Below, piece after piece: positions 2,908 to 44,602 of a stretch of DNA of 44,825 nt. The notes beneath the pieces are model-generated. The model had not been told where the DNA came from. It did no database searches and saw only the letters and a list, made by a program, of their open reading frames with translations. Origin of the DNA: Escherichia phage Gluttony_ev152; sequence record NC_073087.1; one strand, written 5' to 3'. Numbering within the stretch: the first letter of the stretch is position 1; every line of letters starts with the position of its first letter. The position numbers were made by a program, and so were the translations under genes.

Positions 2908-3231
2908 TTACGAATAAAAATTTGGGTCGCGTGCAACGTCTACCAGATACAGATTGCTGATTCGGTTGCCGTAGTGGCCTGGTGTTCGCTGGCGGCACAC
3001 AACGGCGTAGCCTGGAGGAATTGTATTGCCGGTCGCGATAATCCACGCCACGCGTGCGCCCGATAGAGTTTTGCCGTTGCATTCGATGCGCGTTCCGCCA
3101 TCGGCAGTGTTAAGGTTGCCGATTTTGCAGCCGGTGGACTTCAGACGAATGACGCCGGTTTTGCTGTCGTAGGAGAATAACTGGTTAGTCATTGCAACCG
3201 AAAAATCAATGGCTTCGAATGTAGTATTCAT
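2908..3231 (-). CDS. putative AP2/HNH-associated DNA-binding protein
   Basis: IECNGKTLSGARVAWIIATG resembles the G-K-x-AHR-AW-x-G pattern of phage AP2-domain/HNH homing-endonuclease accessory domains; by eye only. Confidence 0.4.
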   Translation of the reverse strand: MNTTFEAIDFSVAMTNQLFSYDSKTGVIRLKSTGCKIGNLNTADGGTRIECNGKTLSGARVAWIIATGNTIPPGYAVVCRQRTPGHYGNRISNLYLVDVARDPNFYS

Positions 3232-3938
3232 TTTAAATTTTCCTCATTGACCGCTATCGCGAAGCCGCGCGGGGTGAGCGACCGGATTAATTTTGTGCGT
3301 GCTGATTTGCCTCCGAGGCGACTATACTGCTTCGAGTACCCTTTTTCAACGAAAACAGGTTTCTTCTCTGGCATACGGAAGCCGTTGCCGGTCCATAAGC
3401 AGGTCAGCTTCGGATATGAATCGCGGGCGTTGATGTATTCCGGGAAGAGCGGGTGTACGTCATCCTCCGGCAGATATCCCCCATACTCCCACGGGTCGAA
3501 TGAGTGATCCGGCTTGCGCCACTGGGTGGAAAGCACACTGCGCGGATTCTCAATCATATATGGCACTTCGAAGAAGTCACCCAGGTAAGCGGCGATCTTC
3601 GCGGTGCGCACCGCCTTAAGCTGAAAGGCTGGGTCTTTAGCTCGCTTGCGCGGGAAAGCGGGCGCACCGCTCACTGCCAGATCCGTGCACGGAGGAAACG
3701 CATAGATGATATCTGGCGTACCGAAATCGCCATTCATCGCACGGTCTACAAAGTCCAGATCGATAAACTCATTGCGATACCGGATTCCGCGACCATAAAT
3801 CCGGTAGTCAAGGTAAGACCCGTGGTCGGCTTCGGAGTAGTTGAAGCAATAACACTTATGCCCCATCTCGGCAGCACGCTCAATCATCAAGCCGCTGCCG
3901 TCAAACAATGACCAGATTGTCATTTTAGCAATAGTCAT
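3228..3938 (-). CDS. putative DNA methyltransferase (C5-cytosine-like)
   Basis: LFDGSG (SAM-binding FxGxG-like) and FPPCTDLAVSG (PC catalytic-type motif) plus ENPR; 236 aa is short for a canonical C5-MTase, so the assignment is tentative. Confidence 0.5.
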   Translation of the reverse strand: MTIAKMTIWSLFDGSGLMIERAAEMGHKCYCFNYSEADHGSYLDYRIYGRGIRYRNEFIDLDFVDRAMNGDFGTPDIIYAFPPCTDLAVSGAPAFPRKRAKDPAFQLKAVRTAKIAAYLGDFFEVPYMIENPRSVLSTQWRKPDHSFDPWEYGGYLPEDDVHPLFPEYINARDSYPKLTCLWTGNGFRMPEKKPVFVEKGYSKQYSRLGGKSARTKLIRSLTPRGFAIAVNEENLK

Positions 3939-8634: not shown

Positions 8635-9438
8635 TTAACGGCGGCGACGTTTGCGTGGTGCTTCGTCTTCGTCGTCGTCCTCATCTTCGTCATCGCGTGG
8701 CTTACGACGTTTGCGAGGTTTTTCATCTTCCTCATCGTCGTCGTCATCGCGGCGCTTGGATTTCTTGGACTTGCGCGGCTTGTCATCTTCATCATCGTCA
8801 TCACGACGTTTTGACTTCTTAGCCTTGCGCGGTGCTTCGTCTTCGTCGTCGTTGTCCAGGTCTTCATCGGAGCAAGAAGACCCGCCACCGCCGAAGGCTT
8901 CACCGTCATCACGGAAGCGTAAACCCAGCAAGCCAGCGCCGAGTCCCTTGCCGTTGGTGTTGTTCCACGCCCAAATATCAAGGGACACGTTGCAATAACA
9001 ACCAGAGTAGATCTCCTGGCCTTCAATCTCGTCGCCGTCTATGGTCAGACCTTGTTCAGTCTGCTTCTCGCCGAGTGACGTTTGAATGATTGGTTGTTTG
9101 AACGATTTGGCGTTGATATACAACATGCCTTCGAATTCTTCGGTTACTTCATCGCGCTCGTCGCCGTCGCGAACTGCACATTCCTTAGAATCCTGGGCGT
9201 AGTGGCGGTCCATCCACTTATCGGCATTCTTCTCGGATTTCAGCTTATCGGTGAGCACTGCGCGCGCTGCCGCTTCCACTTTGTCCACCTGCGGATCTTC
9301 TTTATCCAGAAGAATCACGGCACGGTATGCCGGTTTTTGTCCATCCTGTTTAGGGGTATCACGTTCCCAAATTTTCAGGAAGCATACGCGCACATTTTTC
9401 AGGTTGACTTTAGCCATTTTCCAATTCCTCATTTTCAC
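8635..9438 (-). CDS. DUF2815-like phage single-stranded DNA-binding protein with charge-block repeat tail
   Basis: Position between polymerase and Cas4-like nuclease as in DUF2815/DUF2800 replication modules; C-terminal 90 aa of alternating poly-acidic and poly-basic blocks; sigma70-like promoter upstream (9483-9511). Confidence 0.6.
   Translation of the reverse strand: MKMRNWKMAKVNLKNVRVCFLKIWERDTPKQDGQKPAYRAVILLDKEDPQVDKVEAAARAVLTDKLKSEKNADKWMDRHYAQDSKECAVRDGDERDEVTEEFEGMLYINAKSFKQPIIQTSLGEKQTEQGLTIDGDEIEGQEIYSGCYCNVSLDIWAWNNTNGKGLGAGLLGLRFRDDGEAFGGGGSSCSDEDLDNDDEDEAPRKAKKSKRRDDDDEDDKPRKSKKSKRRDDDDDEEDEKPRKRRKPRDDEDEDDDEDEAPRKRRRR
8640..8870 (-). repeat. low-complexity GA/GAC-type repeats encoding acidic/basic tail of SSB-like protein
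   Basis: Reiterated TTCGTCTTCGTCGTC and GCGTGGCTT/GCGCGGCTT units on forward strand. Confidence 0.5.
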
Positions 9439-11661: not shown

Positions 11662-12180
11662 TTAATCTTCCAGTTCGAAATAGGTTTCGACGATTTCTTT
11701 TAGCTCTTTGTGGAAGTCTTCGACGTCGTCATCTTCCAGCTTGGCGATTGATTTGATCTCGAACGATTCCAGCAGGTCGTCGAATTCGTCGTTCGCATCG
11801 TCGTCGTCACCACCGGCGATAATCGCGGCATACTGTTTGATCTCGTCGCGCATCTCTGCCAGCGGATCGGCATCTTTCTTACCTTTGCCTTTCGCCGGTG
11901 CTTTTTTAGACTTAGCCGGTTTTTCGTCTTCGGCGTCTTCGTCGTCGTCATCTTCTACGACTTCTTTTTTGGCCTTACCCTTCGCCGGTGCTTTTTTAGC
12001 TTTAGCCGGTTTTTCGTCTTCGGCGTCATCGTCGTCATCTTCGACAACTTCTTTTTTGGCCTTAGACGGCTTCTTGTCTTCCTGTTTACCAACGGCAGCG
12101 CCAACGGTTTCATAATGTTTAGCGATGGTTTCCAGTGCTACTACGCCGCGAGTGATCAGGTTTACGATTTGCTCAAACAT
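11662..12180 (-). CDS. acidic/basic charge-block repeat protein
   Basis: ATG at 12180 with GGAGATATACC upstream; two tandem 31-aa repeats KKEVVEDDDDDAEDEKPAKAKKAPAKGKAKK; first gene after the leftward promoter. Confidence 0.6.
   Translation of the reverse strand: MFEQIVNLITRGVVALETIAKHYETVGAAVGKQEDKKPSKAKKEVVEDDDDDAEDEKPAKAKKAPAKGKAKKEVVEDDDDEDAEDEKPAKSKKAPAKGKGKKDADPLAEMRDEIKQYAAIIAGGDDDDANDEFDDLLESFEIKSIAKLEDDDVEDFHKELKEIVETYFELED
11880..12070 (-). repeat. tandem repeat of about 93 nt in charge-block protein gene
   Basis: Two near-identical units (CCTTCGCCGGTGCTTTTTTAG...TTCTTTTTTGGCC), each encoding one 31-aa repeat. Confidence 0.6.
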
Positions 12181-12923: not shown

Positions 12924-15188
12924 ATGAGCTTGATTAAATTCGCTGTAACAAAACCCGCTAAAAAAGGCGAAAAAGCCAGGGCGGAAAACTTCCAGATGAC
13001 GACCGATGAGTTTTTCGAATTTATCAAAGATGCGAAAGAAATATCCTCGGTGCATATCAACAAGACGGAAGATAAAGCCGAGTATGCGCGCCGCAAGCGT
13101 AAGGCCGATGGCATCGTGGCGTATACCAGTGACGGATTGCGCCGCAAGACCAGTGCCGTGGACCGCTCGATCCTGTTCTTCGATATTGACCGCACCGACA
13201 CCCGCACCCTGCGCCGCTGCCGTAAGGCGTTCATCGACGCGGGTCTGGAACACGTATTTCACACCACCACCGGCGACCGCCACCCGCTGAAGGGCGGCAC
13301 GCGTTGCGCCCGTTTCCTGGTGCTCACTGACAAGCCTGTACCGGCTGAAGACCTGGGCCGCGTCCAGTATGCACTATTACACCAACTGGGCCTGTCAGAT
13401 GTGGACTTCGACGATTGCACGAAAGACACTAACCGCCTTATGTACCTACCACACCAGCAGTCTGTTATTAAGTGCCACTATGGCAAGCGCGCCCGCGTCC
13501 GTCGTCTGCTCCGCCTGGCTGATAAGCTGGGAGTGGAAAAAGAGGAAGTACGCCGCGAGCTTACCCAGGGCGACGACGCAGTGGCAGACGGCATTCTGGA
13601 CTGGTGCTTCCAGGCCGGATTCGAGGAGTTATCTTCTGGTCGCGGTTATGAAGTGCCGTGCCCGAACGAACATCTGCACAGCGGCGAAGGGTCGACGGCT
13701 ATCATGGTCAAGGATGGCGAGATCCGTTTCAAGTGTATGCACACCGGCAACGAGTGTTGCTCGGAGCTAAATAGACACCAGCACCTTGCGCTACGTCTCA
13801 TCGGGATACCGGACCACCTGAACGTCGAACCGCACAACATGTCACGTAAGCAAATCGCCGCCATCCTCCCAGGGCTGGACGACGAGGAAGTCGAATCCTT
13901 ATATGAACATATTGTTGATGCGGTTGGCGACGGCGAAGAATACGGCGTGTGCACCGATGCGGATCTGGATAACGAGCCGGTTGCGCTGTTCAGTAAGCAC
14001 GACCCGATTATCGAGGGGTTGGTTAACTTTAAATCAACCTGGTATATGGCGGGTGAGTCGAACATCGGTAAATCGTTCTACGTGCTGGGGCAAATGGGTG
14101 CGGTTGCCGCGGGGATTCCGTTCGGTGGCGCGAAGGTCGTCCAGTCTCATTGCTTCTATTTCGACGCGGAAGGTGGCGAAGCCTCTAACCAGCGCAAAGA
14201 AGCATTGCAGATTAAATATGAGCACGACCTGGACAAGCTGCACATTATCGATCTGCAATCACGCGGCTGGGATATCACCAGCAAATCCGGCTTGCGTGAA
14301 GTTATCAGCTTCATCAACCGCACCGCTAACGGCGAGCCGGTTGGCCTGGTGGCGTTCGACTCACTCAACCAGACTGTTGCGCTGCGGTCCGCCGATGCAA
14401 AACCGTTCGACGAGAATAACGCCAGCGATATGGGTGAAGTGGTCAAAGCGCTGAAGGCCATTGCGGAAAATACAGGCGGCAGTGCGGGCGTCATCCACCA
14501 CCCGGCGAAGGGTGCAAACGGCAGCAGATCTCCCCGTGGGTCCGGCGCGCTGCATGGCGCTGTCGATTCTGCGTTCTTCCTGGAGCAACCGGACGACAAT
14601 CAGCCGGGCCAATTGAACCTGTATCACGAAAAGGCACGTAACGGCATCAAGCAAGCGCCGCGCGGCTTCGTCCTGCTCAAGTGCAAGGTTAAGGTGGATC
14701 TCCGCAAGTCCGAAGCGTTCGAATCACACCAGTCCACCAGCACCGGGCCTGACTTCGGCGACGTGGTTGCCGGTTGGGACGTCAAGCCAATTGCATCCAC
14801 GCCACGCGACGAGACTCTTTATCTCGTACCGGTCGCCCTGGCACCGTTCGCCATCGAACAGGCGAAGGCCGCGGGCAAGGCCGCAGTTAAGGATGAGAAC
14901 GCCGCAGGACCGCGCAATGAAAAAGAGAAAGTGCTTTATGCGGCACTGGAAAAACTGATGGAAGATAACCCGGACCATACCGGATTCAGTAAATCGGCAA
15001 TTGTCCGCCAGGCGGGATTGGCAAAAGGTGGCACATCGACGAAGGCAATAGACGATATGGTCGAGCGCGGCGTGCTTGGGTTTTACACAGACCCACACAC
15101 CGGGGCCATCTATGGGTCGTCTAATATCGTCATCAAAACGAATATACCCATCACGCTTTCGGCTACCGATGACGACCTGAAAGATTAA
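12924..15188 (+). CDS. primase/helicase (RecA-like P-loop ATPase domain)
   Basis: 754 aa; Walker A GESNIGKS; IHHPAKG motif typical of RepA/AAA_25-type helicase domains; N-terminal region may be the primase part. Confidence 0.8.
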   Translation: MSLIKFAVTKPAKKGEKARAENFQMTTDEFFEFIKDAKEISSVHINKTEDKAEYARRKRKADGIVAYTSDGLRRKTSAVDRSILFFDIDRTDTRTLRRCRKAFIDAGLEHVFHTTTGDRHPLKGGTRCARFLVLTDKPVPAEDLGRVQYALLHQLGLSDVDFDDCTKDTNRLMYLPHQQSVIKCHYGKRARVRRLLRLADKLGVEKEEVRRELTQGDDAVADGILDWCFQAGFEELSSGRGYEVPCPNEHLHSGEGSTAIMVKDGEIRFKCMHTGNECCSELNRHQHLALRLIGIPDHLNVEPHNMSRKQIAAILPGLDDEEVESLYEHIVDAVGDGEEYGVCTDADLDNEPVALFSKHDPIIEGLVNFKSTWYMAGESNIGKSFYVLGQMGAVAAGIPFGGAKVVQSHCFYFDAEGGEASNQRKEALQIKYEHDLDKLHIIDLQSRGWDITSKSGLREVISFINRTANGEPVGLVAFDSLNQTVALRSADAKPFDENNASDMGEVVKALKAIAENTGGSAGVIHHPAKGANGSRSPRGSGALHGAVDSAFFLEQPDDNQPGQLNLYHEKARNGIKQAPRGFVLLKCKVKVDLRKSEAFESHQSTSTGPDFGDVVAGWDVKPIASTPRDETLYLVPVALAPFAIEQAKAAGKAAVKDENAAGPRNEKEKVLYAALEKLMEDNPDHTGFSKSAIVRQAGLAKGGTSTKAIDDMVERGVLGFYTDPHTGAIYGSSNIVIKTNIPITLSATDDDLKD

Positions 15189-15265
15189 ATCCTGCGCGCA
15201 TTGGTTGCCGATATGGGAATTCCCATATCGCTAAAAGGTTAAATTTTGCGCGCATTGGTTGCCAT
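15189..15265. promoter_or_regulatory. direct repeat - 20-bp perfect palindrome - direct repeat, candidate protein-binding or origin element
   Basis: TGCGCGCATTGGTTGCC twice flanking GATATGGGAATTCCCATATC, immediately after primase/helicase stop. Confidence 0.4.
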
Positions 15266-15348
15266 TTTGAGTGTTTTTATCAGGTCGTATTGGTTGCCGT
15301 GTAGTGTGAATATAGTGAATAGTTATGCAGTTTTGTTGCATAAAGTAA

Positions 15349-15510
15349 GCGGGACAAAAAGCGGGACAAACAAGGGGCGGGACAAAGCGGGACAGCACCC
15401 CCGTCCCGCCCCTGATGGCGCGGCCTGGAGAGGAGCGGGACAGGCGGGACAACCCCCAGTCTTTCAGACTAGACGGGGGTCAATGGCCCCCCTCGTCTGA
15501 GACTGAATAA
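15349..15510 (+). repeat. noncoding cassette A: GCGGGACA direct-repeat array plus conserved 53-nt element
   Basis: Six direct and one inverted copy of GCGGGACA(A/G) within about 100 bp, followed by AGTCTTTCAGACTAGACGGGGGTCAATGGCCCCCCTCGTCTGAGACTGAATAA (15458-15510). Confidence 0.7.
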
Positions 15511-15665
15511 AATCCGGGGATTGCAAAATACACGGCAGCATGATGCGAATTGCGGTCGACGATGAACTAGGCAACCAATGCGAGTTGCATTATGCTGAGT
15601 GAAAAATGCGGTTTGCAGTCGCAGCAGATAGCGATCAACTTTTTCATGCGCGTGATTAATATTGG

Positions 15666-15694
15666 TTGCGCCCAGCCTGGCACCTTGCTATATT
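15666..15694 (+). promoter_or_regulatory. promoter candidate, TTGCGC-N17-TATATT
   Basis: Hexamers with 17-nt spacer; ATTGGTTGC motif overlapping -35 and again immediately after -10; leader TATATTGGTTGCACACCAACATGAGGAC nearly identical to the leader at 26033-26061 on the minus strand. Confidence 0.55.
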
Positions 15695-15722
15695 GGTTGC
15701 ACACCAACATGAGGACTGAACA

Positions 15723-26033: not shown

Positions 26034-26055
26034 TTGTGTGTCCTCATGGTTGGTG

Positions 26056-26085
26056 TGCAACCAATATAGTGCAACCAATATGCGG
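26056..26085 (-). promoter_or_regulatory. promoter candidate for reverse-oriented ORF, TTGCAA-N18-TATATT
   Basis: Minus-strand hexamers with TTGGTTGCAC abutting -10 and repeated after it; drives ORF 25269..26033. Confidence 0.55.
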
Positions 26086-29697: not shown

Positions 29698-30119
29698 TGA
29701 GCAATACCGCAATCCGCAAAGCGCTTAACAGCGTGGTAGAAGAGTTATCGGTAAGCCTGAGCACTAGCCAGCGCCCGATCCAGGTTAACTGGGAGAACGT
29801 GAGCGGCGACCACGCAAACGGCAGCGGTGTCTACCTGGAGCCGTACCTGCTACCGGCCCCGACCCAGTTTGTGGGCTTCCAGCAGAAGGGCCGGATCTAT
29901 GCTGGCGTATATCAAGTTGCCGTAGTGTTTCCCGCGGGCACTGGTACACAGTATGCGAGCGAACTGGCGGACGCCATCGCGACGTCGGATAAATGGCAGG
30001 CCGTAGGGATTTCCGGAGCGGCCTTCCAGCTTCAGGACTCGCCTTATACCAGTTCGGTGGTCGAGGACGTTGATCGCGCCCGCATCGTGGTTACAGTACC
30101 CTACACCTGTTGCGCCTGA
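29697..30119 (+). CDS. putative tail terminator/completion protein (gpU-like position)
   Basis: 140 aa, ATGA overlap with upstream gene, immediately precedes major tail protein gene. Confidence 0.55.
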   Translation: MSNTAIRKALNSVVEELSVSLSTSQRPIQVNWENVSGDHANGSGVYLEPYLLPAPTQFVGFQQKGRIYAGVYQVAVVFPAGTGTQYASELADAIATSDKWQAVGISGAAFQLQDSPYTSSVVEDVDRARIVVTVPYTCCA

Positions 30120-30179
30120 TTTGGCGCAATTCTGCGCGTGCTGTATCATTAAACCGTATATCTAAACAGGAGCTTTATT

Positions 30180-30905
30180 ATGGGTTATCAACTTCCCAAC
30201 GGGTCCAGCGTCCAGATCGGGTCCGTATTAGGCAGCGGCATCGCGGTTACGGCAGCTACCAACGCCGCCGCGTCGATCTCCGACCTTACGCAAGGTTGCG
30301 TAATTACCTGCGCGGCTTCGCATGGTCTGGTTGTTGGCGACGTTGTTATGTTCACTAAAACCCCGTGGGTCCGAGCGCTTAACCGCGCGTTCATCGTGGG
30401 TAAAGTGGATACTAACGACGTGACGCTGGCGCGCTTCGATACTCAAGACGTCACAAAATACCCTACCGGCGCTTTCGGCGTAGGCACGCCGGGCGAAGTG
30501 GTGAAGGTGTCGAGCTTTATCGACTTCCCGTTTATCACTAACGTTGCCGTGTCTGGTGGCGACCAGCAGACCACCACCTTCCAGCCGTTGCAGGTGAATA
30601 CCGCGATCAGTCTGAACACCACGAAAAACCCGTTGGTACAGACTTACACCTTCACCCACGACGAAGAAGACCCGATCCGCCCAATCCTGGAAGACCTGGA
30701 CGACACACAGAAAACCACTGTGATTAAGTTCACTAACCCAGCGGCAGCAAGCGGCAAAGGTGAGATTCGTATTTACCCAGCTAAGGTATCTTTCCAGAAG
30801 ATTCCGTCCGCTGAAGTAAACAACGTGGAAACGGTACAATCCACTCTGACCATGCAGTCTGATATGGTTATCTACCGTAAGGATCTGGTCGAGGCATTGT
30901 CTTGA
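30180..30905 (+). CDS. major tail (tube) protein
   Basis: 241 aa between tail terminator and G/GT chaperone; followed by strong terminator; gene order as lambda V. Confidence 0.7.
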   Translation: MGYQLPNGSSVQIGSVLGSGIAVTAATNAAASISDLTQGCVITCAASHGLVVGDVVMFTKTPWVRALNRAFIVGKVDTNDVTLARFDTQDVTKYPTGAFGVGTPGEVVKVSSFIDFPFITNVAVSGGDQQTTTFQPLQVNTAISLNTTKNPLVQTYTFTHDEEDPIRPILEDLDDTQKTTVIKFTNPAAASGKGEIRIYPAKVSFQKIPSAEVNNVETVQSTLTMQSDMVIYRKDLVEALS

Positions 30906-30933
30906 TTTGGTCGCTTAAATAGCGAGTGATAAT

Positions 30934-30959
30934 ATGGGGCCAGCACGGCCCCTTTTTTA
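30934..30959 (+). terminator. intrinsic terminator
   Basis: GGGGCCAGCACGGCCCC plus TTTTTT after major tail gene. Confidence 0.65.
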
Positions 30960-30974
30960 TTGGAGAATACTACA

Positions 30975-31337
30975 ATGGCTAAAGCACCACTCTTCACACT
31001 TGACCCTAAGCCAACCTTTAAGCTGCCGATTGAGATCCCGCGCCCTGGTGAGAACGAACCAGGCAAGATGACTTTCACCGTCCGCCACCGCCCTATCGAC
31101 GAATTTTCGCAGACCATGCAGGACACCGAACGCAAGTTGTCGGAATATGACGACAATGACCCGGACGGCTTTAACGTTATGGTCGAGGCCATCATGCACG
31201 TCGCAGAAGGCTGGAATCTGCCGGACGAATTTAACGCGGAGAACGTCCGCCGCCTGGTGGTCAACTATCCACGCGCGTTCGGTGTGTTCCACACGTCGTA
31301 CTATCTCGAACTGATGGGGTTGCGTGAAAAAAACTAA
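30975..31337 (+). CDS. tail assembly chaperone G
   Basis: ATG at 30975 with GGAG RBS (track ORF begins at a TTG at 30960); acidic protein between major tail and tape measure; slippery heptamer at 3' end. Confidence 0.65.
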   Translation: MAKAPLFTLDPKPTFKLPIEIPRPGENEPGKMTFTVRHRPIDEFSQTMQDTERKLSEYDDNDPDGFNVMVEAIMHVAEGWNLPDEFNAENVRRLVVNYPRAFGVFHTSYYLELMGLREKN

Positions 31338-31651
31338 TTGAGGCGGCGCGACGCTTTTATGGGCCGCCGCCACCCTCCGAAGATTTAGCCGCAAGTTTAT
31401 GGGGTGCGACCCCCGAAGATGTTTGTCCGCCTGTTGCGCTGTGGCCTGACAACGCGAAGATAGTCGCAGTCTTCACAGATTGCGCTACACAATGGCGCAC
31501 CGGATTTGGTGGCGCATACGGCATCGACTACGGCGTGCTGGAGTGGTTATTTAAGATGCACGGTATCGAAAACGAGCAGCGCGCGTTTAAAGATATCAAG
31601 CTAATGGAACGAATCGCGCTTGATGAGATGGCGCAGCAGAACCCCGCATAA
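30975..31651 (+). CDS. tail assembly chaperone GT, predicted -1 programmed frameshift product
   Basis: Heptamer A_AAA_AAC at 31328-31334 just before the G stop; the -1 frame is open for 105 codons from 31334 (LIEAARRFYGPPPP...) to TAA at 31649-31651 with no ATG start; matches lambda G/GT paradigm. Confidence 0.5.
31328..31334 (+). other. -1 ribosomal frameshift slippery heptamer A_AAA_AAC
   Basis: Located 1 codon before G stop; downstream -1 frame open without start codon. Confidence 0.5.
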
Positions 31652-31655
31652 TGAA

Positions 31656-31973
31656 GCGGGACAAAACGGGACGTCCCGTTTTGTCCCACCCCTGTGAAAC
31701 TGCATACCTACTCACTTCCATTGCATAATCTAAAAGCGGGACAAGCGGGACGTCCCGTTTTGTCCCACCCCACAAAAGTGCATACGTATTCGGTTTTCGT
31801 GCATAAAACAAACGGGACAAAAAGCGGGACAAACACTAGGCGGGACAAAGCGGGACAGCACCCCGTCCCCGCCAGTGCTGCCGCGGTTTTCAGCCGATCG
31901 GGACAGCGGGACAGCACCCCAGTCTTTCAGACTAGACGGGGGTCAACGGCCCCCCTCGTCTGAGACTGAATAA
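31656..31973 (+). repeat. noncoding cassette B: GGGACA repeat array with two 30-bp palindromes plus conserved 53-nt element
   Basis: Perfect palindrome GGGACAAAACGGGACGTCCCGTTTTGTCCC (31658-31687), near-copy at 31738-31766, about 10 direct GCGGGACA copies, then the same 53-nt element as cassette A with one substitution (31921-31973). Confidence 0.7.
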
Positions 31974-32036
31974 GGTTTGTTTTGAAATCGCTGATACAAT
32001 ATCCATCGGCAACTGCATAAAAAAGGGGACTGCATA

Positions 32037-34679
32037 ATGGCAGATCAGGCAGCAGGCATCACGCTAAAGGCTGATGTTGCACAAATCAGAACGGCAAATA
32101 CTGTGCTGGACTCCTTCGCACAGAAATCCGAGAACACAGAAAACAAGGTTAAGAAATTAAACGACACCCTCGGCAAATCCAAAAAGGTGACGAGTGACGC
32201 CGCGGGCGGAATGGAAAAGCTGGCAAACGAATCGCAGCGCGCCGCCGATGGCATGACGAAACAGGAGCGACTCGCCAACAGGTTAGGCATGTCGACTAAA
32301 AACCTGGGCTTTGCCTCGCGTAACGCCGCATTCCAGCTACAGGATATTGCGGTAACGCTTGAGATGGGGATGCCGGTTCACCGCGTCATGCTTCAGCAGT
32401 TACCGCAGCTAACTGGGGCGTTCGGTGGACTGGGTAACACGCTGCGTTATGTTGCGGGCTTCCTCGGCCCAGTAGGGATCGGCCTCGCCGCCGTAACGGC
32501 AACGTTAGGCGTGGGCGTGGCAATTACGTCCCGCGCAGAGAACCAGGTCGCCGCGCTTAACAAGACGCTGGCGCTGTCAGGTAACATTTCCGGCCTCACT
32601 GCAAACCAGATCCTGGTGTTATCCGAGAACGCCGAGCGCATGGGCGGATCATTCCGCAAGACGCGTGACACAATCCAGGCGCTGGCGGCGGCGGGTGTGA
32701 AAGCGGGTGGTGACTTCGGCGCATTGGCTAAGGTAGTTAATGACTTTGCGAAGGTGTCCAGCCAGCCGATCGAGGATGTGGTAGCGGCGGTGGCGAAGCT
32801 GTCAACCGACCCCGTTGGCGGACTGCGTGCGCTGGCGGATAAGTATCACGTCGTAAACGAAGCGCAGATCCAGCAGGTGCAGTCACTAGTGACGGCTGGT
32901 CGCGAAACCGAAGCGGTGGCGCTGGCTAACAAAACAGCCGCAGCGTCGTTTACCACTATGACCAATGAGATCAAGTCCAACATGGGTACGCTTGAGCGGT
33001 CGATGAACGTCGTTACATCGGCAGCTAAATCTATGTGGGATGCCATCCTGGATGTCGGGCGCGCGCAGTCCTCGAATGAGTCAGAGATGAAAGCGCGTGA
33101 ATCATTGCAGCGACTGACCACGGCTTACTATGCCGAGATGAAAGCGGTAAACGCTGCCGGTGGGGTGATGACCGAAGCGCAGAAAGCGCGTATTAACATG
33201 CTTTACAGCGAACTGGTAGCCCAGGAAAAAGTAGTGGCGTCGCTCACCCTGCGCAACCGTGCAGAGCGAGACAACGCAAGTGCCGCTGACGAAGCAGCAA
33301 AGGCGAACGAAGAGGCAAACCGCACCGCCCGCGACCGCGCCGCGTTCGAGAAGGAGTACGCAACCAACGCGAAGAGGCGCGCCGACGAGATCGCCCGCCT
33401 CAATTTGCTTAATAAGCGCGGCGTTATTGATGAGAAAGAACTAGCCGAGGCGGTTAAGCAGGTCAACGAGCGTTACAAAGACCCGGCACCGAAGAAGGCC
33501 GCCGCTGTTCGAGTCGATGCCGGGCTGAAAATGCTGGAGGTCGCACGGAGCGAACTGGCACAGCTTCGAGAATCAGGCAAGCAGATCGAGGCCAACTCTT
33601 CGACGCAGACCAGAACGCAACGCGCGCAAGCGGCCCTTAACAAGCTGATTGCCGACAACGAGCAGTTAATCGCTGCGAGCAAAGAAAGGGCGCTGACGGC
33701 AGCAGAGAAGCAGCAATTAGTCGAGTTCGGGCGCGTGAAGGAAGTCCGCGAGCAGATCGTCGAAGAAGCCAAATTGCTGGACGCGAAAGAGAAGCAGGTC
33801 AAGGCGCACGCGCAGATCGACGCCTTCGTTAAGAACCAGAACGCCGAGCTAAAAGCCACCGCGGCGGGCTATGCGCTTTCCACTCGCGAAGCGGCTAACC
33901 TGCGCGAAGAATTGCAGCTAATTGACCGCCTTAAGCGGGTGGGCGCTAGTGATACCGATATTGATCTGGCGGTGTCTAAACTGCGCGAAGTGCAGGAAGC
34001 ACAGACCGGTGCTAACGCCTCACTATGGGATGGATTCAGCCGTGGGCTTAAGGATAGCGTGGATGAAATGGGTAACGGCTATACGCAGATGGCGTCACTC
34101 ACAAAATTCACGTTCGGCGCTATGCAGGACACGATGAACGAGTTTTTCGAGACTGGCAAGCTGAACGCAAAGGATATGGTTAAGTCCATCCTGAGCGAAT
34201 TAATCAAGCTGGCTACCTCGCAGGCGTTCAAGTCCATCGTTAGCGCTTTCGGTGGCGACGGCGGCAAAAACGGATTGTTCGGCGCTATCTTCTCCGGCCT
34301 CACTAAGAATGCGGACGGCGGAGCGTACTCAGGGGGCAATCTCGCGGCCTATTCAGGGAAAGTGGTAAGCCAGCCTACCTTTTTCAGTTATGGCGTCCAG
34401 GCGTTCGCTAAGGGCGCAGGATTGATGGGCGAGGCTGGTCCTGAGGCCATCATGCCACTGAAGCGCGGGCCGGACGGGAAACTGGGCGTTGCCGCGTCTG
34501 GCGCAGGCGGAGGTATGGTCGTGACGACTAACGTTTACACGGGGACCGGTAAAACGGATACCAGTGTCAGCGGGCCGGACCCCCGTACTGCGCAGGCGTT
34601 CGGCAAGCAAATCACCGAGGCGGTGAAGGCCGAGATCGTGAAGGCGACGAAACCGGGTGGTGTACTTTACAAACGATGA
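32037..34679 (+). CDS. tail tape measure protein
   Basis: 880 aa, long alpha-helical Ala/Gln/Lys-rich central region, Gly-rich C-terminal part; canonical position. Confidence 0.85.
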   Translation: MADQAAGITLKADVAQIRTANTVLDSFAQKSENTENKVKKLNDTLGKSKKVTSDAAGGMEKLANESQRAADGMTKQERLANRLGMSTKNLGFASRNAAFQLQDIAVTLEMGMPVHRVMLQQLPQLTGAFGGLGNTLRYVAGFLGPVGIGLAAVTATLGVGVAITSRAENQVAALNKTLALSGNISGLTANQILVLSENAERMGGSFRKTRDTIQALAAAGVKAGGDFGALAKVVNDFAKVSSQPIEDVVAAVAKLSTDPVGGLRALADKYHVVNEAQIQQVQSLVTAGRETEAVALANKTAAASFTTMTNEIKSNMGTLERSMNVVTSAAKSMWDAILDVGRAQSSNESEMKARESLQRLTTAYYAEMKAVNAAGGVMTEAQKARINMLYSELVAQEKVVASLTLRNRAERDNASAADEAAKANEEANRTARDRAAFEKEYATNAKRRADEIARLNLLNKRGVIDEKELAEAVKQVNERYKDPAPKKAAAVRVDAGLKMLEVARSELAQLRESGKQIEANSSTQTRTQRAQAALNKLIADNEQLIAASKERALTAAEKQQLVEFGRVKEVREQIVEEAKLLDAKEKQVKAHAQIDAFVKNQNAELKATAAGYALSTREAANLREELQLIDRLKRVGASDTDIDLAVSKLREVQEAQTGANASLWDGFSRGLKDSVDEMGNGYTQMASLTKFTFGAMQDTMNEFFETGKLNAKDMVKSILSELIKLATSQAFKSIVSAFGGDGGKNGLFGAIFSGLTKNADGGAYSGGNLAAYSGKVVSQPTFFSYGVQAFAKGAGLMGEAGPEAIMPLKRGPDGKLGVAASGAGGGMVVTTNVYTGTGKTDTSVSGPDPRTAQAFGKQITEAVKAEIVKATKPGGVLYKR

Positions 34680-42190: not shown

Positions 42191-44602
42191 ATGGCAGCGG
42201 GTACGCTATCCGTAACGAACAATAGCAAGGCGGTAGTAGGGGTCGGCACCACGTTTACCGCGTTTAAAGCTGGCGACTTCTTAACGTTGGTGGTAGGACA
42301 AGTCCCATACACCGTGGCAATCGCGTCCATTGAAAGCGCAACCGCGCTTACGCTGGTGCTGCCGTTCGACGGCCCAACGGCAACCGGCCTTGCGTGGGAC
42401 GGCGTTAAGCGCGATACCATGTCACTGGCAACGATGGGCGTTACCGTACAGGCACAGAAAGCGTTGCGATTGATGATCGCAGATGAAAACAACTGGCGCG
42501 CTATCTTCGGCGAAGAAGAAGAAATCTCGGTCACGCTACCGAACGGTCAAGTGGTGCAGGGTATGTCGTGGGGCTACCTGTCAAAACTGCTTAAAGACGT
42601 AGATCCTGTTGAATTGCAGGCTATCGCGGACCAGACCATCACGGCTAAAAACCAGGCGCAAGGATTCCGTAACGAGGCGGAAGGCTTCAAGAACACCGCG
42701 AATACCGCGAAAGATGCCGCAGTAGCTGCGAAGACAGCGGCGGAGACAGCTAAGTCGCAGGCCGTAACCGCTAAAGCGAAGACAGCGGCGGAGACAGCTA
42801 AGTCGCAGGCCGTAACCGCTAAAGACCAGGCCAAAGGATTTCGCGACGAGGCTGAAGGCTTCGCCAACAGCGCGGACGCGTCAAAGAAAGTGCCGTATGC
42901 TGGCGTAACATTACCGGCACCGACTGGAGTAAGGGATATGCTCAAGCGGTTGCGCGATTCGGTTAAGGGCGGCTTCTGGCGCGTCGATGATATTGCGCAG
43001 TTTCCATCTGGCGAGATGACCCCTTTCAGATACGGACCTGGCGTATGTGGCGGCGCGGGGGATACATTCTTTGCAATCAACGTTGACTGGCAAACCTCGC
43101 GCGTTAAAGTTTTCTCGGGAAACAACAACGCGATCAACGGTGCGTCGGGAAGTGTTAGCGCTATCGAACTGGCTAAGCTGGGGGCTAACGGGGACGTGGC
43201 GATCGGGGACGGCGGGACCGGTGCATCGAACGACCAGGGCGCGAGAAAAAACCTTCAGGCAATGCACGAGCGACAGGCATCGTTGGATACTGAAGATCTT
43301 AACGTCCTTCAGGGTGATAAGGCTGGGTTTTATTATCAGTCCCTGTCGGCTAACGCCACCCCCGAACGTAACTATCCTATTAACCAGGCGGGTTGTTTAC
43401 TGGTGCAAAGATCCGGTGCTAACGATCCGAAAAGCTGCATACAAACGTACACCTCATACCTTAACGGTCGGCGCTGGATTCGATGGCTGAGCAACGCGAC
43501 TACTGGCACTTGGTCCCAATGGTACGAATTATATAACGCAGGGTCGTCGCCGACTTTTTCTGGAGTAATTACTGGATCTGCGGTGCGCGCTTCCGTTGAC
43601 GGAAAGATCATAACTATTAAACCTGGCGTCAATGATGTAGTTATTCACAACTCGGCATCTAATAAATTTTTGCAATTAAAGGACGATGGCGGTCTTTCGT
43701 ATGACAACAAGCTGATCGCGTATAACGGCCTTGCCGCCAGTGGCACATTTGCTATGACCGTCCCTAGCATTAAAGTTACAACAGCCAATGGCGGATTTCG
43801 TATCGACGGAACAACGTCGACAAACAACCAGCCACTTCACGTAACAGGCTACAACTCCGCAGGCACGCGTCTTTGGTTTTTAGGGAAGGACACCGGGACG
43901 AACGCGCTATTCCTGAACGATGTTACATCGTCTAAGGTTGAGCTGATCACAGACGGCGTTGTGCTTGGTACAAAGAATTTTGCGGGCAAGGCATACGTCC
44001 AGGCCGCAAGTTTAGAGATCGACCGACCGAGCGGCAAGTATTTCAAAATGCAGAACGACGGCACCTCGTCGCACCCTGCAACCTTCAAATTATGGGGTAA
44101 CGGGTCTGAGAGGGCGTCGGTTATTGAGTGTGGTTTTGATAACGGCCCTGGGTGGGTGTTTTACGCGCAATATAACAGCAACGGCACGCGCCAGATGAAC
44201 GTTAACGGTACGGTAAACTGCACGACGGTAAACCAGTCGTCTGACCGCGAGTTGAAGGATAACATCAAGCCGATCGAGAACGCTCGCGCGGGCCTTGCTA
44301 AGATGGGCGGTTATACCTACACCCTGAAAAAAGACGGTATGCCGTACGCCGGGGTGATTGCACAGGAAGTAATGGACGTTGTGCCGGAAGCGGTGAGCAC
44401 GTTCGAAGACTACGAACACCTTGCGGGGCCAACGCAAGACGGCGAGGAACTGGTAGGGCGTCAGCGCTTCTTCCAGGTGGACTACGGCGCTATTGCGGCG
44501 TACGCGGTGCAAGTGTGTAAAGAACAGGAAGAGGAACTGGTGTCATTACGCAGCGAACTGGAGGAATTAAAAGCTGCCGTAGCGGCACTGACTAAAGCAT
44601 AA
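42191..44602 (+). CDS. tail fiber protein with C-terminal intramolecular chaperone (peptidase S74-like) domain
   Basis: 803 aa; C-terminus SDRELKDNIKPIENA ... GGYTYTLKKDG ... GVIAQEV ... QVDYGAIAAY ... coiled-coil matches the autoproteolytic chaperone domain of endosialidase and T5 L-shaped fiber type; internal 48-nt tandem duplication. Confidence 0.8.
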   Translation: MAAGTLSVTNNSKAVVGVGTTFTAFKAGDFLTLVVGQVPYTVAIASIESATALTLVLPFDGPTATGLAWDGVKRDTMSLATMGVTVQAQKALRLMIADENNWRAIFGEEEEISVTLPNGQVVQGMSWGYLSKLLKDVDPVELQAIADQTITAKNQAQGFRNEAEGFKNTANTAKDAAVAAKTAAETAKSQAVTAKAKTAAETAKSQAVTAKDQAKGFRDEAEGFANSADASKKVPYAGVTLPAPTGVRDMLKRLRDSVKGGFWRVDDIAQFPSGEMTPFRYGPGVCGGAGDTFFAINVDWQTSRVKVFSGNNNAINGASGSVSAIELAKLGANGDVAIGDGGTGASNDQGARKNLQAMHERQASLDTEDLNVLQGDKAGFYYQSLSANATPERNYPINQAGCLLVQRSGANDPKSCIQTYTSYLNGRRWIRWLSNATTGTWSQWYELYNAGSSPTFSGVITGSAVRASVDGKIITIKPGVNDVVIHNSASNKFLQLKDDGGLSYDNKLIAYNGLAASGTFAMTVPSIKVTTANGGFRIDGTTSTNNQPLHVTGYNSAGTRLWFLGKDTGTNALFLNDVTSSKVELITDGVVLGTKNFAGKAYVQAASLEIDRPSGKYFKMQNDGTSSHPATFKLWGNGSERASVIECGFDNGPGWVFYAQYNSNGTRQMNVNGTVNCTTVNQSSDRELKDNIKPIENARAGLAKMGGYTYTLKKDGMPYAGVIAQEVMDVVPEAVSTFEDYEHLAGPTQDGEELVGRQRFFQVDYGAIAAYAVQVCKEQEEELVSLRSELEELKAAVAALTKA
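42730..42825 (+). repeat. 48-nt tandem duplication inside tail fiber gene
   Basis: GAAGACAGCGGCGGAGACAGCTAAGTCGCAGGCCGTAACCGCTAAAG occurs twice back to back, encoding KTAAETAKSQAVTAK twice. Confidence 0.7.

What the first reader, a model, noticed from the sequence alone, without database searches (positions are those of the whole stretch)
31320..31651. Programmed -1 frameshift G/GT tail chaperone with A_AAA_AAC slippery site
One codon before the stop of the G-like gene lies the heptamer A AAA AAC (31328-31334). The -1 frame downstream is open for 105 codons without any start codon and ends at 31649-31651. The position between major tail and tape measure matches the conserved G/GT mechanism of long-tailed phages. 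The supplied ORF track misses the T part and instead lists a spurious minus-strand ORF 31596..31832.
Basis: partly seen in the sequence, partly recalled or inferred. Interest (0 to 1): 0.4.

Follow-up and report, generated by a model that had tools for sequence, protein, structure and literature searches.

The report
Frameshifted phage tail chaperone gene pair
This is the usual two-proteins-from-one-gene trick that long-tailed phages use to build their tails, here in an E. coli phage of the genus Dhillonvirus; it is real and strongly conserved, but ordinary, and matters mainly because public annotations of this phage group leave the longer protein out.

Summary
The 120-codon gene at 30975-31337 ends ...GAA AAA AAC TAA. 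The heptamer A_AAA_AAC (31328-31334) directly abuts the stop, and the -1 frame is open from 31328 to the TAA at 31649-31651.

The two parts match the Pfam pair found in phage T1: G is Phage_TAC_4 (E=1.4e-23) and the -1 frame product is DUF1799 (E=5.8e-21). They do not match lambda's own G and T families. The pair lies between the tail tube gene and the tape measure gene.

Among 23 distinct Dhillonvirus sequences, variation in the -1 frame falls on third codon positions (22/10/70 for positions 1/2/3). In 155 of 164 related loci a canonical slippery heptamer (AAAAAAC, GGGAAAC or TTTAAAT) sits immediately before the G stop, down to about 30% protein identity. No start codon is conserved in the T frame.

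A 7-bp all-G/C hairpin begins 7 nt after the heptamer. Its synonymous sites are unusually invariant (p=2.4e-4), so it is a candidate stimulator, but some related clades lack it.

Best reading: programmed -1 ribosomal frameshifting gives G (14.0 kDa) and a minor GT fusion (25.6 kDa). This is a new member of a known kind. None of the Dhillonvirus records I inspected annotates the fusion. Interest is low.

The parts
30180..30905 (+). Major tail tube protein gene (upstream context)
   Evidence: Pfam Phage_tail_3 E=1.6e-32; phrog_584 major tail protein E=3e-74.
30936..30958 (+). Intrinsic terminator-like hairpin plus T-run between the tail tube gene and G. It probably lowers transcription of G/GT and the tape measure gene relative to the tube gene (inferred).
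   Evidence: Consensus scan: GGGGCC-AGCAC-GGCCCC then TTTTTT. A terminator is annotated at the equivalent place in T1 and in phage CS16.
30975..31337 (+). G: tail assembly (tape measure) chaperone gene, 120 aa, 13.96 kDa, zero frame
   Evidence: Translation; Pfam Phage_TAC_4 83.9 bits, E=1.4e-23, full-length match; phrog_569 E=9.8e-41. The identical protein occurs in many Dhillonvirus records under the names tape measure chaperone, tail assembly chaperone or hypothetical protein. Mass.
31328..31334 (+). Slippery heptamer A_AAA_AAC, in register with the G frame (P-site AAA, A-site AAC)
   Evidence: Read directly. Invariant in all 24 Dhillonvirus loci. AAAAAAC, GGGAAAC or TTTAAAT occupies the same place in 155 of 164 related loci.
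31335..31337 (+). G stop codon TAA directly abutting the heptamer; possible 'shifty stop' contributor (inferred)
   Evidence: The stop immediately follows the heptamer in 155 of 164 loci, and in 8 more the slip-prone A_AAG or A_AAA lies one codon further upstream. In lambda the slip site G_GGA_AAG is followed by five more sense codons before the G stop.
31342..31371 (+). Candidate stimulatory hairpin: 7 G/C pairs, GGCGGCG (31342-31348) with CGCCGCC (31365-31371), 16-nt loop, starting 7 nt after the heptamer
   Evidence: RNA fold -17.7 kcal/mol, z=-1.8, 12 of 200 shuffles as good. Both arms are invariant in 23 distinct Dhillonvirus sequences while loop positions vary; third-codon positions from the slip site to the 3' arm vary at 2 of 12 against 68 of 93 in the rest of T, Fisher p=2.4e-4. 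A hairpin in the same columns occurs in T1-type and Ralstonia-type relatives, with some covariation, but not in Rtp-like or phiES15-like relatives.
31334..31651 (+). T segment: 105 codons plus stop in the -1 frame, expressed only as the C-terminal half of GT. GT = join(30975..31334, 31334..31651), 225 aa, 25.64 kDa.
   Evidence: Translation; Pfam DUF1799 75 bits, E=5.8e-21; phrog_680 E=1.6e-30, and phrog_17368, a 213-position profile that matches both G (positions 1-107) and T (150-212). Variable sites by codon position 22/10/70; synonymous/non-synonymous codon differences 310/99 in this frame against 65/366 and 28/405 in the other two frames. Mass.
32037..34679 (+). Tape measure protein gene (downstream context)
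   Evidence: Pfam TMP_2 E=2.3e-43 and Tape_meas_lam_C E=7.2e-14; phrog_24 E=4e-181.

Best explanation
The locus is a tail assembly chaperone gene pair expressed by programmed -1 ribosomal frameshifting.

Most ribosomes translate G (30975-31337) and terminate at TAA, giving a 120-aa chaperone. A minority slip back one base on A_AAA_AAC: tRNA-Lys and tRNA-Asn re-pair with AAA AAA, or tRNA-Asn slips in the P site while the stop codon waits in the A site. These ribosomes then read CTA at 31334 and continue for 105 codons, giving a 225-aa GT fusion, ...REKN-LIEAARRF....

By analogy with lambda, many copies of G plus the G half of GT coat the tape measure protein. The T half recruits the tail tube protein so that it polymerises around the tape measure. 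Neither protein stays in the virion.

The stop codon abutting the heptamer and the G/C hairpin 7 nt downstream probably tune the slip frequency.

Shown here: the sequence anatomy, the domain identities, coding selection in the -1 frame, and conservation of the site. Inferred: that the slip occurs on the ribosome, its frequency, the role of the hairpin and the stop codon, and the binding partners.
For: - Anatomy and register of the heptamer, and both stop codons.
- G is Phage_TAC_4 and the -1 product is DUF1799, flanked by tail tube and tape measure genes.
- T1 gp40 and gp39 carry the same Pfam pair.
- A PHROG profile (phrog_17368) spans both halves, which suggests fused proteins of this kind have been deposited for relatives.
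- The -1 frame is under purifying selection in 23 distinct Dhillonvirus sequences (variable sites 22/10/70; synonymous/non-synonymous 310/99 against 65/366 and 28/405), with 0 stops against 3-8 in the other frames.
- 155 of 164 related loci have AAAAAAC, GGGAAAC or TTTAAAT directly before the G stop, and T is always in the -1 frame.
- The T-frame start codon position is not conserved. In Dhillonvirus the first one lies 29-74 codons after the slip site.
- T homology begins at the first codon after the shift (L1, A4, Y9 and the prolines at 11-13 conserved), upstream of the Pfam match.
- Relatives that use G_GGA_AAC or T_TTA_AAT have no long homopolymer run, which favours ribosomal over transcriptional slippage.
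- Synonymous-site suppression over the hairpin.
[quoted passage not shown] The lambda mechanism, the 30:1 ratio and the use of A_AAA_AAC in g-t frameshifting are in PMC5009743.
Against: No protein evidence: the fusion has not been detected for this phage group in anything I could search.

A_AAA_AAC is reported to be much less shift-prone than A_AAA_AAG in E. coli (PMC5009743), so efficiency may be low. That would fit a chaperone needed in small amounts, but it is untested.

Support for the hairpin is moderate. The fold z-score is only -1.8. Its arms lie on Ala (GCG) and Pro (CCG) codons of a conserved A...PP motif, so protein and codon-usage constraints may explain part of the conservation. 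Rtp-like and phiES15-like relatives lack it.

The run of seven A (31327-31333) could also allow some transcriptional slippage.
Confidence: 0.9

Rival explanations
1. GT is made by transcriptional slippage. RNA polymerase inserts one extra A in the run of seven A (31327-31333), giving an mRNA in which G and T are in one frame. The junction would read ...REKK-LIEAARR.
For: The heptamer lies in an uninterrupted run of seven A. phiES15-like relatives also have seven A, and T1-like and Rtp-like relatives have six. Only a few percent of GT is likely to be needed (lambda ratio 30:1, PMC5009743).
Against: Ralstonia-type relatives use G_GGA_AAC and Xop411 uses T_TTA_AAT at the same position, with no long homopolymer. 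What is conserved across the family is the X_XXY_YYZ register, not run length. From general knowledge, efficient slippage by bacterial RNA polymerase usually needs runs of about 8-9 or more. The downstream hairpin, 7 nt after the heptamer, is spaced as expected for a ribosomal stimulator.
Confidence: 0.06
2. T is a separate small protein started independently, either at GTG 31535 (38 aa, as some records annotate) or by termination-reinitiation at a non-canonical codon such as ATT 31337-31339.
For: Several public records annotate 31-38-aa 'DUF1799' or 'hypothetical' ORFs here. In Rtp and Xop411 a start codon lies near the beginning of the T frame and T is annotated as a separate gene.
Against: A 38-aa product would drop about two thirds of the DUF1799 domain, which spans residues 23-99. 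The first 67 codons are nevertheless under purifying selection and are conserved from codon 1. The position of the first start codon varies widely among relatives. No Shine-Dalgarno-like sequence precedes 31334-31340, and the ATT is not conserved (AAA in T1; ATA or ATC in others).
Confidence: 0.03
3. Artefact or decay: G and T are really one gene broken by a homopolymer sequencing error, or T is a decaying remnant with no function.
For: Homopolymer runs are error-prone in sequencing. One relative (Salmonella phage STSR3, L034) has one A fewer at this site and a differently annotated G.
Against: The same A6C-plus-stop arrangement is found in 24 independently sequenced Dhillonvirus loci and 139 loci overall. 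T shows clear purifying selection and no stops.
Confidence: 0.01

Closest known systems
Tape measure chaperones of phage T1 and T1-like phages (Drexlerviridae; T1 gp40/gp39, the pair named TfmB / 'tape measure chaperone' in some T1-like records)
   Same: Same Pfam pair, Phage_TAC_4 plus DUF1799. Same gene order: tube gene, terminator, G, T, tape measure gene. Same heptamer A_AAA_AAC directly before TAA. In T1 proper, a hairpin in the same columns 7 nt downstream. The T parts are 38% identical. The frameshift is acknowledged for T1-like phage Stevie (PMC4319613).
   Different: Different genus (Dhillonvirus). In T1 the T stop is followed by a terminator and the tape measure gene starts about 40 nt later. 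Here a conserved 385-nt non-coding repeat region separates T from the tape measure gene. The hairpin sequence differs (GGCGGCG/CGCCGCC here, GGCGGTT/AACCGCC in T1).
Bacteriophage lambda G / GT
   Same: Same logic and position: a chaperone gene between the tail tube gene (V) and the tape measure gene (H), with a -1 shift near its 3' end into an ORF that has no start of its own, giving a minor fusion protein (PMC5009743).
   Different: No detectable sequence relationship. Lambda G is Phage_TAC_2 and lambda T is Phage_tail_T. BLASTP gives E>0.2 and hhalign gives 0.9% probability. Lambda slips on G_GGA_AAG with five more sense codons before the G stop, and T overlaps H. Here the slip site is A_AAA_AAC abutting the stop.
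g-t frameshifting of haloarchaeal siphoviruses HCTV-1, HCTV-2 and HCTV-5
   Same: One of them is reported to use the same heptamer A_AAA_AAC, and another uses G_GGA_AAC as in the Ralstonia-type relatives found here (PMC5009743).
   Different: Archaeal hosts. No sequence comparison was made here.

Membership tests
G/GT-type programmed -1 frameshift tail chaperone cassette (functional class defined on lambda and other long-tailed phages) | Two overlapping ORFs located between the major tail (tube) gene and the tape measure gene | tested here: met
   Phage_tail_3 at 30180-30905; TMP_2 plus Tape_meas_lam_C at 32037-34679; G and T lie between them.
G/GT-type programmed -1 frameshift tail chaperone cassette (functional class defined on lambda and other long-tailed phages) | The downstream ORF is in the -1 frame relative to G and has no conserved initiation site of its own | tested here: met
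   The frame relation is -1 in all 164 loci. The first T-frame start codon lies 29-74 codons downstream in Dhillonvirus and is variable elsewhere.
G/GT-type programmed -1 frameshift tail chaperone cassette (functional class defined on lambda and other long-tailed phages) | A slippery X_XXY_YYZ heptamer, in register, within the overlap of the two frames | tested here: met
   A_AAA_AAC at 31328-31334. The overlap of the two open frames is only 10 nt and contains it.
G/GT-type programmed -1 frameshift tail chaperone cassette (functional class defined on lambda and other long-tailed phages) | The arrangement is conserved in relatives despite sequence divergence | tested here: met
   155 of 164 loci have a canonical heptamer directly before the stop, down to about 30% T identity.
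G/GT-type programmed -1 frameshift tail chaperone cassette (functional class defined on lambda and other long-tailed phages) | Two proteins, G and a minor GT fusion, are actually made, and both are needed for tail assembly | not testable with these tools
   Needs mass spectrometry or a Western blot, plus genetics.
G/GT-type programmed -1 frameshift tail chaperone cassette (functional class defined on lambda and other long-tailed phages) | G binds the tape measure protein and T binds the major tail protein | not testable with these tools
   Inferred from lambda only (PMC5009743).
Pfam PF08748 Phage_TAC_4 | Score above the curated gathering threshold over the full domain | tested here: met
   83.9 bits against a cut-off of 21.1; residues 1-120 on profile positions 1-124 of 124.
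Pfam PF08809 DUF1799 | Score above the curated gathering threshold over the full domain | tested here: met
   75 bits against a cut-off of 26; residues 23-99 of the -1 frame product on profile positions 1-80 of 80.
Lambda gpG (PF06894 Phage_TAC_2) and gpT (PF06223 Phage_tail_T) sequence families | Detectable sequence or profile similarity to lambda G and T | tested here: not met
   No Pfam hit to either family at E<=0.1. BLASTP E=4.4 for G and 0.24 for T. hhalign probability 0.9%. A fold-level relationship was not tested.
Transcriptional slippage sites | A long homopolymeric A or T run (typically 8-9 or more, from general knowledge), conserved as a run among relatives | tested here: not met
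   The run here is A7. Relatives have A6, or GGGAAAC or TTTAAAT with no long run.

The most novel reading that the evidence does not exclude
In the whole Phage_TAC_4/DUF1799 chaperone family the frameshift signal may have three parts: the heptamer, the G stop codon that always abuts it, and, in the Dhillonvirus, T1 and Ralstonia-type clades, a G/C hairpin 7 nt downstream. If so, the G:GT ratio would be set by competition between release-factor binding and tRNA slippage (a 'shifty stop' variant), which differs from lambda, where five sense codons follow the slip site. The evidence does not exclude this, but it rests only on positional conservation (155 of 164 loci) and on synonymous-site suppression.
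Probability: 0.3. Interest if true: 0.3.

Novelty: new member of a known kind. Interest (0 to 1): 0.15.

Why it matters
The main value is for annotation. None of the Dhillonvirus records I opened individually annotates the 225-aa GT fusion; they list nothing, or 31-38-aa fragments, or spurious ORFs over the T segment. In a spread sample of 60 of the 149 matching records, no feature over the T segment is named as a chaperone. The exact fusion sequence is absent from a 15-billion-protein collection, although G alone is present.

Dhillonviruses such as SECphi18 and SECphi4 are used in anti-phage defence studies, and tail assembly chaperones have been reported as defence triggers in other phages (PMC13434031). 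A complete protein list is therefore useful. Biologically this is another instance of a frameshift already known to be conserved in long-tailed phages.

Tried and rejected
- The word-indexed protein search with the full fusion returned only two 125-aa G-only relatives and no fusion, so it was not informative.
I used single T proteins from three clades instead.
- The PDB sequence search with GT found nothing at E<=1. I did not predict a structure, because only window sequences and a handful of returned proteins could be submitted, and the Pfam assignments were already decisive.
- A scan of the whole window for in-frame slippery heptamers followed by long -1 frames did not discriminate without gene calls, because spurious ORFs overlapping real genes score high. 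One apparent second case on the minus strand (ORF 3228..3938) is an ordinary ATGA-type overlap with the next gene, which has its own ATG.
- Folding 93 nt downstream of the heptamer gave no significant z-score. Only the local 41-nt hairpin is marginal, at z=-1.8.
- Rfam found nothing meaningful between 30900 and 32100.
- My first automatic classification mis-called three loci (L104, L118, L119) as lacking the heptamer. Direct inspection shows they have it.
- Literature searches for Dhillonvirus or HK578 together with frameshift or chaperone found no description of this site.
- A look-up of Xu et al. 2014 (PMC3907469) failed because the paper is not held.

Full report
**What the window is.** The region 30100-32100 is 95-98.7% identical to many Escherichia phages of the genus Dhillonvirus (HK578-like siphophages such as slur05, jat and Oekolampad). 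It matches 157 phage records in all.

**Checking the observation.** The gene at 30975-31337 has a GGAGA 8 nt upstream of its ATG and encodes 120 aa.
- Its zero frame ends TTG CGT GAA AAA AAC TAA. A_AAA_AAC therefore occupies 31328-31334 in the X_XXY_YYZ register, and its last codon is the last sense codon.
- The -1 frame has a TGA at 31325-31327, is open from 31328 to 31648, and stops at TAA 31649-31651. The two open frames overlap by only 10 nt, and that overlap contains the heptamer.
- After a -1 slip the next codon read is CTA at 31334, followed by 104 more codons.
- The frame contains no ATG. The first alternative start is GTG 31535, at codon 68.
- Openness alone is not remarkable: about 3% of -1 frame positions in long ORFs of this window are open for at least 105 codons.

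**What the two parts are.**
- G is a full-length match to Pfam Phage_TAC_4 (83.9 bits, E=1.4e-23).
- The -1 frame product is a full-length match to DUF1799 (75 bits, E=5.8e-21).
- The upstream gene is a tail tube protein (Phage_tail_3) and the downstream gene is a tape measure protein (TMP_2 plus Tape_meas_lam_C).
- PHROGs agrees. One 213-position profile (phrog_17368) matches G with its first half and T with its last third, which suggests fused proteins of this type have been deposited for relatives.
- T1 gp40 and gp39 carry the same Pfam pair, whereas lambda G and T belong to Phage_TAC_2 and Phage_tail_T.
- I found no similarity to lambda G or T by BLASTP or hhalign.

**Is the -1 frame really translated?** I compared 23 distinct Dhillonvirus sequences.
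- Variable sites in the T segment fall 22/10/70 on codon positions 1/2/3 of the -1 frame. G gives 10/6/79 in its own frame.
- Codon differences from the window are 310 synonymous to 99 non-synonymous in the -1 frame, against 65/366 and 28/405 in the other two frames.
- The -1 frame never contains a stop, while the other frames contain 3-8.
- An alignment of T segments from eleven lineages (30-48% identity) is conserved from the first codon after the shift: L1, A4, Y9 and the prolines at 11-13, all upstream of the Pfam match. Translation must therefore enter the frame at or very near the heptamer.

**Conservation of the site.** I collected 164 loci: Dhillonvirus, phiES15-like prophage-type phages, T1-like and Rtp-like Drexlerviridae, Ralstonia phages, Xanthomonas phage Xop411, and Klebsiella and Enterobacter phages.
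- 139 loci have AAAAAAC, 15 have GGGAAAC and 1 has TTTAAAT, each directly followed by the G stop.
- 8 loci have a slip-prone A_AAG or A_AAA one codon further upstream.
- 1 locus (STSR3) has one A fewer, possibly a sequencing error.
- T is always in the -1 frame. The position of the first T-frame start codon is not conserved.
- Because GGGAAAC and TTTAAAT keep the X_XXY_YYZ pattern without a long homopolymer run, the conserved property is ribosomal slipperiness rather than polymerase stuttering.

**Possible stimulators.**
- The stop codon. It abuts the slip site throughout the family. In lambda, by contrast, five sense codons follow G_GGA_AAG.
- The hairpin. A hairpin of seven G/C pairs (31342-31348 with 31365-31371) starts 7 nt after the heptamer.
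- Evidence for the hairpin within Dhillonvirus: there is no variation from the heptamer to the end of the 5' arm or in the 3' arm, while loop positions vary. T-frame third positions vary at 2 of 12 sites in this stretch against 68 of 93 in the rest of T (Fisher p=2.4e-4, ignoring phylogeny).
- Evidence for the hairpin in relatives: T1-type and Ralstonia-type relatives form a hairpin in exactly the same alignment columns. Across 29 sequences, 78.8% of cells pair, against 73% in shuffles and 30-62% when the partner is slid by 1-3 columns. Two inner pairs switch between C-G/G-C and U-A.
- Evidence against the hairpin: the local fold z-score is only -1.8. The arms coincide with Ala and Pro codons of a conserved motif. 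Rtp-like and phiES15-like clades lack the hairpin.
- I treat the hairpin as a plausible, lineage-restricted stimulator, not an established one.

**Mechanism.** The best explanation is programmed -1 ribosomal frameshifting that gives G (13.96 kDa) and a minor GT fusion (25.64 kDa, junction ...REKN-LIEAARR).
- By analogy with lambda, G and the G half of GT coat the tape measure protein. The T half recruits the tube protein. The lambda ratio is about 30:1, and neither protein is in the virion (PMC5009743).
- The same review reports that A_AAA_AAC is less shift-prone than A_AAA_AAG in E. coli, which fits a low GT level. [quoted passage not shown]
- The terminator-like hairpin at 30936-30958 between the tube gene and G is also annotated in T1 and CS16. 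It probably lowers expression of the chaperone and tape measure genes relative to the tube gene.

**Rivals.** Transcriptional slippage on the A7 run, independent initiation of T, and a sequencing artefact or pseudogene are each argued against by the points above. I give them about 0.06, 0.03 and 0.01.

**Novelty.**
- The G/GT frameshift is long known to be conserved in long-tailed phages. The homologous T1-like chaperones are described as having 'a conserved translational frameshift' (PMC4319613).
- I found no description of the site for Dhillonvirus in the held literature.
- None of the Dhillonvirus records I opened annotates a joined CDS. In a spread sample of 60 of the 149 records that match the T segment, the features over it are named 'hypothetical protein', 'DUF1799 domain-containing protein' or nothing.
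- The exact fusion is not in the large protein collection, while G alone is.
- This is therefore a new, un-annotated member of a known kind, of low interest beyond correcting annotations.

Noticed in passing
window 31652-32036 and 15314-15510: T and the tape measure gene are separated by a 385-nt stretch that is at least as conserved among Dhillonviruses as the flanking genes. Its length varies by non-multiples of 3 (374-406 nt) and no ORF in it has a PHROG match, so it is probably functional non-coding sequence. About 200 nt of it (31777-31973) is repeated at 82-84% identity at 15314-15510, inside a 530-nt non-coding gap after an AAA_25-domain gene. The module is found only in Dhillonvirus records (157 records). 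One record (jat) calls it 'repeat_region' and HK578 annotates a 'terminator'. In T1 and lambda the T and tape measure genes are nearly adjacent. Function unknown.
   Followed up: partly
window 31657-31913 and 15350-15451: Arrays of the heptamer CGGGACA, all on the plus strand: 8 copies in the T/tape-measure spacer and 6 in the 15.3-kb copy. That is 14 of the 18 matches in the window, against 6.2 expected in the whole window and none of 100 shuffles reaching 18. The arrays look like binding sites for a DNA- or RNA-binding factor. Six of the 16 plus-strand TGCATA hexamers in the window also lie in the 385-nt spacer.
   Followed up: partly
window 31920-31968 (and 15457-15505): A long imperfect hairpin, CAGTCTTTCAGACTAGACGGGGGTCAACGGCCCCCCTCGTCTGAGACTG, ends the repeated module. 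It folds at -29.2 kcal/mol with z=-3.0, is almost identical in both copies, and is nearly invariant among 22 Dhillonvirus sequences. No T-run follows it, so it is not a classical intrinsic terminator.
   Followed up: partly
window 31664-31692 and 31743-31771: Two copies of a 29-nt unit, AA(A/G)CGGGACGTCCCGTTTTGTCCCACCCC, each containing the perfect palindrome CGGGACGTCCCG. They are part of an internal repeat of about 80 nt (31654-31751 against 31734-31830, 77% identical).
   Followed up: no
window 15177-15300, 15570-15591 and 15660-15708: The non-coding gap 15189-15722 also holds several copies of ATTGGTTGC(C) and its inverse (GCAACCAAT), including 33-nt direct repeats at 15177 and 15231. A related inverted pair links 15688-15708 with 26049-26069, and a 39-nt repeat containing TGCAACCAA occurs at 967 and 26065. 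These may be repeated promoter or operator sites.
   Followed up: no
locus L034 (Salmonella phage STSR3, MT500539.1), around locus position 1195-1204: At the chaperone slip site this record has TAAAAAC instead of the AAAAAAC of its relatives, and its G gene is annotated with a different end. This is probably a homopolymer sequencing error at the slippery run, or a natural variant.
   Followed up: no
window 8651-8869 and 11716-12058: Families of GTC/GTCGTC-rich direct repeats, including a 90-nt tandem duplication at 11868-12047. They probably encode acidic Asp/Glu-rich low-complexity protein segments on the minus strand.
   Followed up: no
window 42728-42823: A perfect 48-nt tandem duplication, GCGAAGACAGCGGCGGAGACAGCTAAGTCGCAGGCCGTAACCGCTAAA repeated twice, which corresponds to a 16-codon in-frame repeat if it is coding.
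   Followed up: no
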